Shown piece by piece: positions 12,785 through 13,098 of a stretch of 33,715 bases of DNA. Within the stretch, counting starts at the first letter, position 1, and every line of letters begins with the position of its first letter. This DNA is from a virus (taxonomy: Duplodnaviria; Heunggongvirae; Uroviricota; Caudoviricetes): the IMG/VR virus record IMGVR_UViG_2534682164_000009. One strand, given 5' to 3'. The notes under the pieces are model-generated. The model saw only the letters and a list, made by a program, of their open reading frames with translations, was not told the DNA's origin and ran no database searches. A program made the position numbers and the translations under genes.

Positions 12785-13098
12785 ATGACTCAAAACTATG
12801 AACTGATTGTGAAAGGGATCCGCAATTTTGAGAATAAAGTTACGGTAACTTTAGCGTTACGGGACAAAAACGCTTTGACGGTGAAATTTTCGACCTGGAC
12901 ATCTCGCTGGACCGTGTTGAAGGTGCCGCGCTGGAGTTTTATGAGGCAGCAGCCAGAAGGAGCATCAGACAGGTCTTCTTGGATGTTGCTGCCGGGTTAT
13001 GTGAAGGGGACGAGCTGTTGCCAGAAACGCGCCCCTGTTCAGAGGCGCGGTATACCATAAAAATTAACAGTTCTGATAACTCGATTACGGGTTGTTAG
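12785..13098 (+). CDS. hypothetical protein between holin and endolysin, apparent frameshift at T-run 12887-12890
   Basis: N-terminal MTQNYELIVKGIRNFENKVTVTLALRDKNALTVKF continues protein-like in the +2 frame (…DLDISLDRVEGAALEFYEAAARRSIRQVFLD…) to stop 13096-13098 if a fifth T is restored. Confidence 0.4.

What the first reader, a model, noticed from the sequence alone, without database searches (positions are those of the whole stretch)
12785..13098. Extra gene wedged between holin and endolysin
Lysis cassettes usually run holin, endolysin, spanin. Here a roughly 104-codon gene of unknown function follows the holin directly and precedes the endolysin remnant. Its two halves are in different frames and join if the T4 run at 12887-12890 is read as T5. 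It could be a lysis-timing or superinfection moron.
Basis: seen in the sequence. Interest (0 to 1): 0.35.

Follow-up and report, generated by a model that had tools for sequence, protein, structure and literature searches.

The report
Ordinary YdfR gene, frameshift is artefact
The "extra" gene between holin and endolysin is a common prophage gene of the YdfR family whose function is still unsettled, and its apparent frameshift is almost certainly a sequencing error in a draft Shigella sonnei assembly, so the finding is ordinary.

Summary
Window 12785-13098 holds a YdfR-family gene (Pfam DUF1327, 132.8 bits). It starts 4 nt after the stop codon of a P21-type class II holin (12565-12780). It lies upstream of an 18-codon stub of a SAR-type endolysin (13154-13207) that is cut by an IS21-family element.

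This holin-YdfR-endolysin order is standard:
- K-12 Qin prophage has essQ-ydfR-rrrQ.
- Phages mEp460, BP-4795, YYZ-2008 and others have the same order.
- 101 phage records and at least 579 IMG/VR contigs encode a relative.
- 4243 of 5426 complete E. coli genomes carry matching DNA.

The two-frame observation is real, but the lesion is not the T4 run at 12887-12890. It is a missing A in the run at 12866-12870 (A5 here, A6 in every close relative).

The window is the whole contig ADUU01000022.1 of one draft assembly. Against twelve near-identical genome loci, including S. sonnei 53G, it carries 13 private one-base deletions and one insertion. Twelve deletions shorten A/T runs, and the hit rate rises with run length. 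All twelve loci have an intact 104-codon gene, so the frameshift is very probably an assembly artefact.

Function is unresolved. The only experiments show that the K-12 orthologue binds the RNase E catalytic half.

The parts
12565..12780 (+). Class II (phage 21 S-type) holin, 71 aa, intact
   Evidence: Pfam PF04971 Phage_holin_2_1, E 9e-33. The same 71-aa gene is called in all related genome loci.
12770..12777 (+). Shine-Dalgarno-like GGGGAGAG inside the end of the holin gene, 7 nt upstream of the ydfR-like ATG. The 4-nt holin-stop-to-ATG gap suggests translational coupling (inference).
   Evidence: Read directly. The 4-nt spacing is conserved in 90 of 93 related loci.
12785..13098 (+). YdfR-family (DUF1327) gene. 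It is 314 nt in the window and 315 nt (104 codons) in all relatives.
   Evidence: PF07041 at 132.8 bits on the repaired translation. 99% DNA identity to annotated 'YdfR family protein' genes. PHROG 2735.
12866..12870 (+). A5 run where one A is missing (A6 in relatives). This is the true site of the apparent frameshift.
   Evidence: Alignments. 79 of 93 related loci carry GACAAAAAACGC.
12887..12891 (+). TTTTC where relatives have TTTTT. A synonymous Phe codon change private to this contig, not the frameshift site.
13154..13207 (+). First 18 codons of a SAR-type endolysin (R), truncated
   Evidence: Identical to the start of the mEp460 and E. coli 55989 lysozyme genes up to 13207. The resulting 56-aa junction ORF is on record in 196 blocks of the assembly collection.
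13208..13488 (+). End region of an IS21-family element (ISSso4-like) with repeated TTTGGCAT motifs. This insertion cut the endolysin.
   Evidence: 100% match next to istA of an 'IS21-like element ISSso4 family transposase' (H85).
13488..14751 (-). IS3-family element (IS600-like from memory of its protein sequence), one of three copies in the window. Its orfA carries another private one-base deletion at 14547.
   Evidence: (Pfam HTH_Tnp_1 and rve).

Best explanation
The feature is an ordinary YdfR-family (Pfam DUF1327) gene. It sits in its usual slot in a phage-21-type lysis cassette (class II holin, YdfR, SAR endolysin, spanin) of a defective lambdoid prophage of Shigella sonnei. In that prophage the endolysin was cut by an IS21-family insertion.

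The two-frame appearance comes from one missing A in an A6 run. This is one of 14 one-base homopolymer-type errors private to this draft contig. The real gene is an intact 104-codon ORF.

How it works (inferred, about 0.3 confidence on its own):
- The product is a small, acidic, soluble cytoplasmic protein with a three-stranded sheet, one long helix and a variable tail.
- It is made from the late transcript, probably translationally coupled to the holin.
- By analogy with K-12 YdfR, it binds the catalytic N-terminal half of RNase E and so touches RNA decay late in infection, rather than acting directly on the envelope.
- It is an accessory gene, not a required lysis component.
For: Identity:
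- PF07041 at 132.8 bits, against a cut-off of 25.
- 99% DNA identity to annotated YdfR-family genes in mEp460 and E. coli 55989, both with holin-YdfR-lysozyme-Rz order.
- Same order in K-12 Qin and in BP-4795, YYZ-2008, PhiR12_5 and HannyBb.
- In 93 related loci, all ORFs are intact, 91 start 3-4 nt after the holin stop, and 87 have an endolysin downstream.

Artefact:
- The window equals the whole contig ADUU01000022.1. The frameshift fragment of the neighbouring esterase gene is on record only on that contig.
- The twelve related genome loci (L003-L010, L091-L093 and L096) all have an intact 104-aa gene.
- S. sonnei 53G (HE616528; strain name from PMC5447701) differs from the window by 2 substitutions and 10 one-base gaps over 21.4 kb.
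- The window has 13 private deletions and 1 private insertion, against about 7 private substitutions.
- A/T runs are shortened at 2/84 (length 5), 4/29 (length 6), 5/13 (length 7) and 1/1 (length 8). G/C runs of 3 or more are shortened at 0/639.

Mechanism:
- K-12 YdfR binds RNase E residues 1-597 in a two-hybrid assay, and residues 1-72 of YdfR suffice. RNase E 1-598 co-purifies with it, RNA co-purifies, and overexpression is not toxic (PMC13232886).
- The window protein is 59/72 identical to K-12 YdfR over residues 1-72.
- No hydrophobic segment is present, and the pI is 4.85.
- Predicted fold: strands 5-14, 18-27 and 34-43, then a helix at 50-73. Block-mean pLDDT over the core is 80-94.
Against: Artefact:
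- No reads were available, so the error is inferred from comparison, not seen.
- A real strain-private deletion in a dead prophage cannot be formally excluded.

Mechanism:
- The RNase E data come from over-expression and two-hybrid assays of a 65%-identical orthologue.
- Over-expression changed few transcripts, and the authors could not exclude that a contaminant brought the RNA.
- The protein is acidic, which does not favour direct RNA binding.
- No fold or sequence relative of known function was found.
- The tight 4-nt coupling to the holin in Escherichia could equally point to a lysis role.
Confidence: 0.8

Rival explanations
1. The one-base deletion is real. This isolate carries a genuine ydfR-like pseudogene, part of the decay of a dead prophage.
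For: The prophage is defective. The endolysin is cut by an IS, head genes are missing, and the J-like gene is split also in the complete S. sonnei 53G genome. Homopolymer runs are natural hot spots for slippage (established knowledge).
Against: There are 14 private one-base indels in 33.7 kb against about 7 substitutions, a 13:1 deletion bias and a length-dependent hit rate in A/T runs only. All other genomes of the lineage have A6. The neighbouring frameshift at 11219 is found on this contig alone among 153 billion gene positions. Extrapolated genome-wide, this indel density would disrupt a large share of genes (inference).
Confidence: 0.08
2. YdfR-family proteins are lysis-timing regulators. 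They would be small cytoplasmic partners of the pinholin's basic C-terminal tail or of the SAR endolysin, comparable in role to T4 RIII or P1 LydB.
For: There is an invariant 4-nt junction with the class II holin, and the endolysin lies just downstream in 87 of 93 Escherichia-type loci. The protein is acidic (pI 4.85) and the holin tail is basic. Per PMC13232886, a K-12 ydfR mutant was flagged in an envelope-integrity screen, though a polar effect on rrrQ is possible (inference).
Against: No experiment links it to lysis. Remote family members lie outside the holin-endolysin pair: after Q and about 0.4-0.5 kb before unrelated holins, or among tail genes. Over-expression of K-12 YdfR gave no growth defect. 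From memory, phage 21 itself lyses without such a gene (not checked here).
Confidence: 0.2
3. The shifted frames are decoded by programmed -1 ribosomal frameshifting at C-AAA-AAC (12865-12871), giving full-length protein from the A5 allele.
For: A -1 slip is the direction needed. AAA-AAC resembles the 3' part of known slippery heptamers (established knowledge).
Against: The heptamer is not of the X-XXY-YYZ type. The allele is unique to one draft contig, while 93 of 93 relatives are in frame. The same contig has 13 other homopolymer indels in unrelated genes and in intergenic DNA.
Confidence: 0.01
4. The gene is a superinfection-exclusion or anti-phage defence moron.
For: Remote members occupy varied positions in phage genomes, always followed by a convergent small ORF, which is moron-like behaviour. 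Over-expressed K-12 ydfR raised the streptomycin MIC 3-fold in one screen (PMC12924614).
Against: There is no match to 5027 PADLOC defence models. In Escherichia loci it has no promoter of its own and sits inside the late operon (one search found no promoter-like site in 12300-13300). There are no experimental data.
Confidence: 0.05

Closest known systems
E. coli K-12 YdfR (b1555, UniProt P76160), Qin cryptic prophage
   Same: Same Pfam family. Same slot: essQ holin, 4-nt gap, ydfR, rrrQ lysozyme, rzpQ/rzoQ. 59 of 72 residues identical over the N-terminal domain.
   Different: 65% identity overall, with an unrelated C-terminal tail. In Qin the stop overlaps the lysozyme start by 4 nt, whereas relatives of the window's type have a 55-nt spacer.
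Phage mEp460 gp55 (YP_007112129) and E. coli 55989 WP_000193273, 'YdfR family protein'
   Same: 99% DNA identity over the whole gene and its flanks, with the same holin-YdfR-lysozyme-Rz order.
   Different: These copies are intact (315 nt). The window lacks one A and has two further base differences (12891, 12979).
Accessory lysis regulators encoded in lysis cassettes (T4 RI/RIII, P1 LydB, Mu gp25 'releasin'; Mu work in PMC9239132)
   Same: All are small proteins encoded next to the holin or endolysin. Works-like comparison only.
   Different: No sequence or fold similarity was detected. YdfR has no membrane segment. No lysis phenotype is known.
Protein modulators of RNase E (RapZ, RraA/RraB; phage T7 gp0.7, T4 Srd, phiKZ Dip, the phage examples from memory)
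   Same: K-12 YdfR binds the RNase E N-terminal half and co-purifies with RNA, as RapZ does (PMC13232886).
   Different: No effect on RNase E activity has been shown. Few transcripts change on over-expression. There is no homology to any of these proteins.

Membership tests
YdfR family / Pfam DUF1327 (PF07041) | Match to the family HMM above the curated gathering score | tested here: met
   132.8 bits against a cut-off of 25, profile positions 1-90 of 93, on the A6-repaired translation. Also PHROG 2735 at E 3.5e-55.
YdfR family / Pfam DUF1327 (PF07041) | Conserved N-terminal domain of about 72 residues with invariant Y53-E54 and near-invariant G47 and A57, followed by a variable tail | tested here: met
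   Alignments A2 and A3. The window sequence carries all of these residues in the -1 frame.
YdfR family / Pfam DUF1327 (PF07041) | Intact reading frame of about 103-116 codons | tested here: not met
   The window copy is split at 12866-12870. This is judged an assembly error because all related genomes are intact.
YdfR family / Pfam DUF1327 (PF07041) | Named model in NCBIfam | tested here: not met
   No NCBIfam HMM hit. RefSeq nevertheless names the near-identical proteins 'YdfR family protein', presumably by another rule.
Phage-21-type pinholin / SAR-endolysin lysis cassette | Class II holin of the P21 S family | tested here: met
   PF04971, E 9e-33.
Phage-21-type pinholin / SAR-endolysin lysis cassette | Endolysin with an N-terminal signal-anchor-release domain | tested here: inconclusive
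   Only 18 codons remain (MSAKIKYGLSAAVLALIA). They equal the start of the 177-aa lysozyme of mEp460. The SAR character was not tested beyond that.
Phage-21-type pinholin / SAR-endolysin lysis cassette | Spanin genes (Rz/Rz1) downstream | tested here: not met
   These are absent from the window. IS elements and then tail genes follow. They are present in intact relatives.
Homopolymer under-call artefact of a draft assembly | Indels private to one assembly and contradicted by independent assemblies of the same lineage | tested here: met
   At each of the 14 indel sites, every reference locus aligned there agrees against the window. The 237-aa frameshift product is found on this contig only.
Homopolymer under-call artefact of a draft assembly | Error rate rising with run length, and a deletion bias | tested here: met
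   2/84, 4/29, 5/13 and 1/1 for A/T runs of 5, 6, 7 and 8. 13 deletions against 1 insertion.
Homopolymer under-call artefact of a draft assembly | Read-level evidence (flow-gram or pile-up ambiguity at the site) | not testable with these tools
   No reads or sequencing-platform metadata are available here.

The most novel reading that the evidence does not exclude
YdfR/DUF1327 proteins are a small, Enterobacteriaceae-restricted family of phage late proteins with a fold not matched in the PDB. In this reading they dock on the catalytic half of RNase E to re-tune RNA decay, or the processing of the lysis-gene mRNA, just before lysis. The same 72-residue core would travel as a moron, together with a convergent small ORF, in other phages. 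Nothing here excludes this, but nothing in the window itself adds evidence for it.
Probability: 0.25. Interest if true: 0.45.

Novelty: already known. Interest (0 to 1): 0.08.

Why it matters
It matters little for discovery. The gene is a catalogued family, present in most E. coli genomes and many lambdoid and Stx phages, and the frameshift is not biology.

Two practical points follow:
- This contig carries about one homopolymer error per 2.4 kb. Every 'split gene' seen in this window should therefore be distrusted unless other genomes share it. This applies to the Q antiterminator, the SASA esterase, IS600 orfA and the side tail fibre.
- YdfR remains a very widespread late-operon gene without an established role. 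A simple deletion experiment in an inducible phage would be cheap and informative.

Tried and rejected
- Exact look-up of the 91-aa frame-1 product: not on record. No gene is called there on the source contig.
- Exact search for the A5 allele in species-representative genomes: 0 hits.
- PDB sequence search with the family profile: nothing below E 1.
- Foldseek against the PDB with two models, and against BFVD with the first: no hit below E 0.001, and TM-score on the query was 0.35 or less for PDB and about 0.5 or less for BFVD.
- NCBIfam and PADLOC: no hits.
- Main text of the envelope screen PMC3879167: no mention of ydfR. That claim therefore rests on the citation in PMC13232886 only.
- Literature searches for DUF1327 or YdfR function: only PMC13232886 is substantive.
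- Natural 'holin-DUF1327 fusion' proteins in the database: rejected as evidence of a functional link. Their holin parts are garbled by frameshifts.
- Programmed frameshifting: considered and rejected (see rival explanations).
- First synteny script: it used an off-frame holin query. It was redone correctly.

Full report
**1. What is in the sequence**

- The class II holin gene runs from 12565 to 12780. It is 71 aa and hits Pfam PF04971 at E 9e-33.
- Four bases after its TAA stop, an ATG at 12785 opens a reading frame. A GGGGAGAG stretch lies just upstream.
- This frame stays open to 13060 (91 aa). The -1 frame is open from about 12838 to a TAG at 13096-13098.
- So the 'two halves in different frames' observation is correct.
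- Downstream, 13154-13207 encodes the first 18 residues of a lysozyme. After that the sequence diverges from intact lysozyme genes.

**2. What the gene is**

- The repaired translation matches Pfam DUF1327 (PF07041) at 132.8 bits, against a cut-off of 25. It also matches PHROG 2735, a family of unknown function.
- The DNA matches 4243 of 5426 complete E. coli genomes. The best hits are 99% identical and are annotated 'YdfR family protein'.
- 101 phage records encode a relative. These include mEp460, H-19B, BP-4795, YYZ-2008 and 63 Stx-converting phages.
- At least 579 IMG/VR contigs also encode a relative.
- Annotated records show the order holin, YdfR, lysozyme, Rz. This holds in mEp460 and E. 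coli 55989, in K-12 Qin as essQ-ydfR-rrrQ-rzpQ, and in four further phages.
- I scored 93 related loci:
  - The YdfR-family ORF is intact in all 93.
  - It starts 3-4 nt after the holin stop in 91.
  - An endolysin follows within -83 to +370 nt in 87.
- The 'extra' gene is therefore the normal third member of this type of cassette in Escherichia and Shigella.

**3. Where the frameshift is, and whether it is real**

- Alignment with intact 315-nt copies puts the only gap in the A run at 12866-12870. The window has A5, and the relatives have A6 or AAAAAC-C.
- The 56-aa junction ORF made by the truncated endolysin is on record in 196 blocks of the assembly collection. Seventy-five of these have contigs longer than 1 Mb.
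- Every retrieved locus has an intact 104-aa DUF1327 gene and an intact 617-aa esterase gene upstream.
- The 237-aa fragment produced by the window's frameshift in that esterase gene is on record on a single contig, ADUU01000022.1 of GCA_000188795.2. That contig is 33,715 bp long, so it is the window itself.
- Against reference loci from near-identical genomes, the window carries 13 private one-base deletions:
  - Positions 4674, 7211, 7573, 9620, 11219, 12523, 12865, 14547, 24190, 24272, 28275, 28772 and 29173.
  - It also carries one private insertion at 7290.
  - This compares with about seven private substitutions.
- Twelve of the 13 deletions shorten A or T runs. The fraction of A/T runs hit rises with run length:

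  | Run type and length | Runs shortened |
  |---|---|
  | A/T, length 5 | 2/84 |
  | A/T, length 6 | 4/29 |
  | A/T, length 7 | 5/13 |
  | A/T, length 8 | 1/1 |
  | G/C, length 3 or more | 0/639 |

- S. sonnei 53G (HE616528; strain name from PMC5447701) differs from the window by only two substitutions but ten one-base gaps over 21.4 kb.
- This pattern is the signature of systematic homopolymer under-calling in a draft assembly, not of evolution.
- I put the probability that the ydfR-like frameshift is an artefact at about 0.9.
- A genuine strain-private deletion remains possible, because no reads could be examined.
- Programmed -1 frameshifting is rejected. The allele is unique to this contig, and the same contig has 13 more such indels in unrelated places.

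**4. Context**

- The cassette lies in a defective lambdoid prophage. Upstream to downstream it contains:
  - RusA and a Q antiterminator;
  - a DNA methylase;
  - three tRNAs and two STnc100 copies;
  - a SASA/NanS-p-like esterase;
  - a terminator-like hairpin at 12498-12526;
  - the holin, the YdfR gene and the endolysin stub.
- After the stub comes the end of an IS21-family (ISSso4-like) element, the TTTGGCAT repeats at 13208-13488.
- An IS3-family element follows, then istB/istA, and then lambda-like tail genes.
- There is no spanin and there are no head genes. In this lineage the cassette cannot lyse the cell, whatever the state of ydfR.

**5. How the gene product probably works**

- Shown by others: K-12 YdfR binds the N-terminal, catalytic half of RNase E.
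  - Residues 1-72 of YdfR suffice in a bacterial two-hybrid assay.
  - RNase E 1-598 co-elutes with Strep-YdfR, and DNase-resistant nucleic acid co-purifies.
  - Over-expression is not toxic and changes few transcripts (PMC13232886).
- Shown here:
  - The window protein is 59/72 identical to K-12 YdfR over residues 1-72.
  - It is acidic (pI 4.85) and has no membrane segment.
  - It is predicted to fold as three antiparallel strands packed against one long helix, with a disordered, variable tail. Block-mean pLDDT over the core is 80-94.
  - It has no detectable relative of known structure or function.
- Inferred: it is made late, coupled to holin translation, and modulates RNase E-dependent RNA decay. 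It is an accessory gene rather than a lysis effector.
- I give this mechanism about 0.3. The main rival, a cytoplasmic lysis-timing regulator, gets about 0.2. 'Something else' takes the rest.
- One observation argues against a strict lysis role:
  - A full-library profile search finds only 77 clusters at 50% identity.
  - Among them are 72-86-aa 'core-only' proteins.
  - In their phage contigs the gene lies after Q and about 0.4-0.5 kb before unrelated holins, or among tail genes.
  - It is always followed by a convergent ORF of about 95 aa with no known family.

**6. Comparison with what is known, and verdict**

- The gene is a member of the YdfR/DUF1327 family. The HMM match, the conserved residues and the synteny are all met. 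The only failed feature, an intact frame, is explained by assembly error.
- It works like nothing that is yet established. The closest functional analogy is the set of small protein partners of RNase E.
- The family is narrow. Species-representative genomes show it in Escherichia and Shigella, plus two MAG contigs that are probably mis-binned. One Salmonella cluster was also found.
- Novelty: already known.
- Interest is low. The finding is a correct reading of a flawed contig.
- The useful output is the warning that this contig's frameshifts are mostly artefacts.

Noticed in passing
window 4674, 7211, 7290, 7573, 9620, 11219, 12523, 14547, 24190, 24272, 28275, 28772, 29173: These are thirteen further one-base indels private to this contig, nearly all in A/T homopolymers. 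They split or truncate the Q antiterminator (253 aa against 273), the SASA/DUF6645 esterase (237+392 aa against 617), IS600 orfA and the side tail fibre (459+428 aa against 918). Other 'pseudogenes' in this window should be treated as suspect.
   Followed up: yes
window 13208-13488: The four to five spaced TTTGGCAT repeats are the terminal region of an IS21-family element (ISSso4-like). It cut the endolysin after codon 18. The same junction is present in at least 196 blocks of the assembly collection, so this insertion is genuine and shared across the lineage.
   Followed up: partly
window 24798-27976: The lambda J-like tail-tip gene is split into 547 + 513 aa. The same split is present in the complete S. 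sonnei 53G genome (L092), so unlike the others it looks like a real pseudogene.
   Followed up: partly
window 1-504, 2155-3419, 13488-14751: There are three copies (one partial) of the same IS3-family element, plus an IS21-family element at 14744-16470. In related genomes the DNA after the IS at 13488-14751 continues differently (tail-fibre assembly genes instead of istB/istA), which suggests IS-mediated rearrangements between isolates.
   Followed up: partly
window 9339-9588, 9664-9853, 10131-10340, 4259-4434: A tRNA Met(cat)/Arg(tcg)/Arg(tct) cluster, two STnc100 sRNA copies and a hok/sok locus lie in the prophage. This is the usual furniture of Stx-phage-like late regions, here without stx.
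   Followed up: no
L112 2501-3042, L113 2501-3042, L114 2501-3024, L115 2465-3014: Remote 72-86-aa DUF1327 'core-only' genes are each followed by a convergent 93-100-aa ORF with no Pfam family. The pair sits at different places in phage genomes (after Q, or among tail genes). It may be a two-gene moron. In E. coli phage PhiR12_5 (L101 2258-2518) a minus-strand ORF likewise sits between the ydfR-like gene and R.
   Followed up: partly
proteins P0002, P0005, P0047, P0102: Database 'fusions' of holin and DUF1327 domains have garbled holin parts. They are further frameshift or assembly artefacts at the 4-nt junction, not real fusion proteins.
   Followed up: yes
L107 and L109: DUF1327 loci are labelled as Veillonella parvula and Bacillota MAGs. 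The sequences are Escherichia-phage-like (59-65% identity to the query; L107 scores the same as the E. coli locus L106), so these contigs are probably mis-binned.
   Followed up: no
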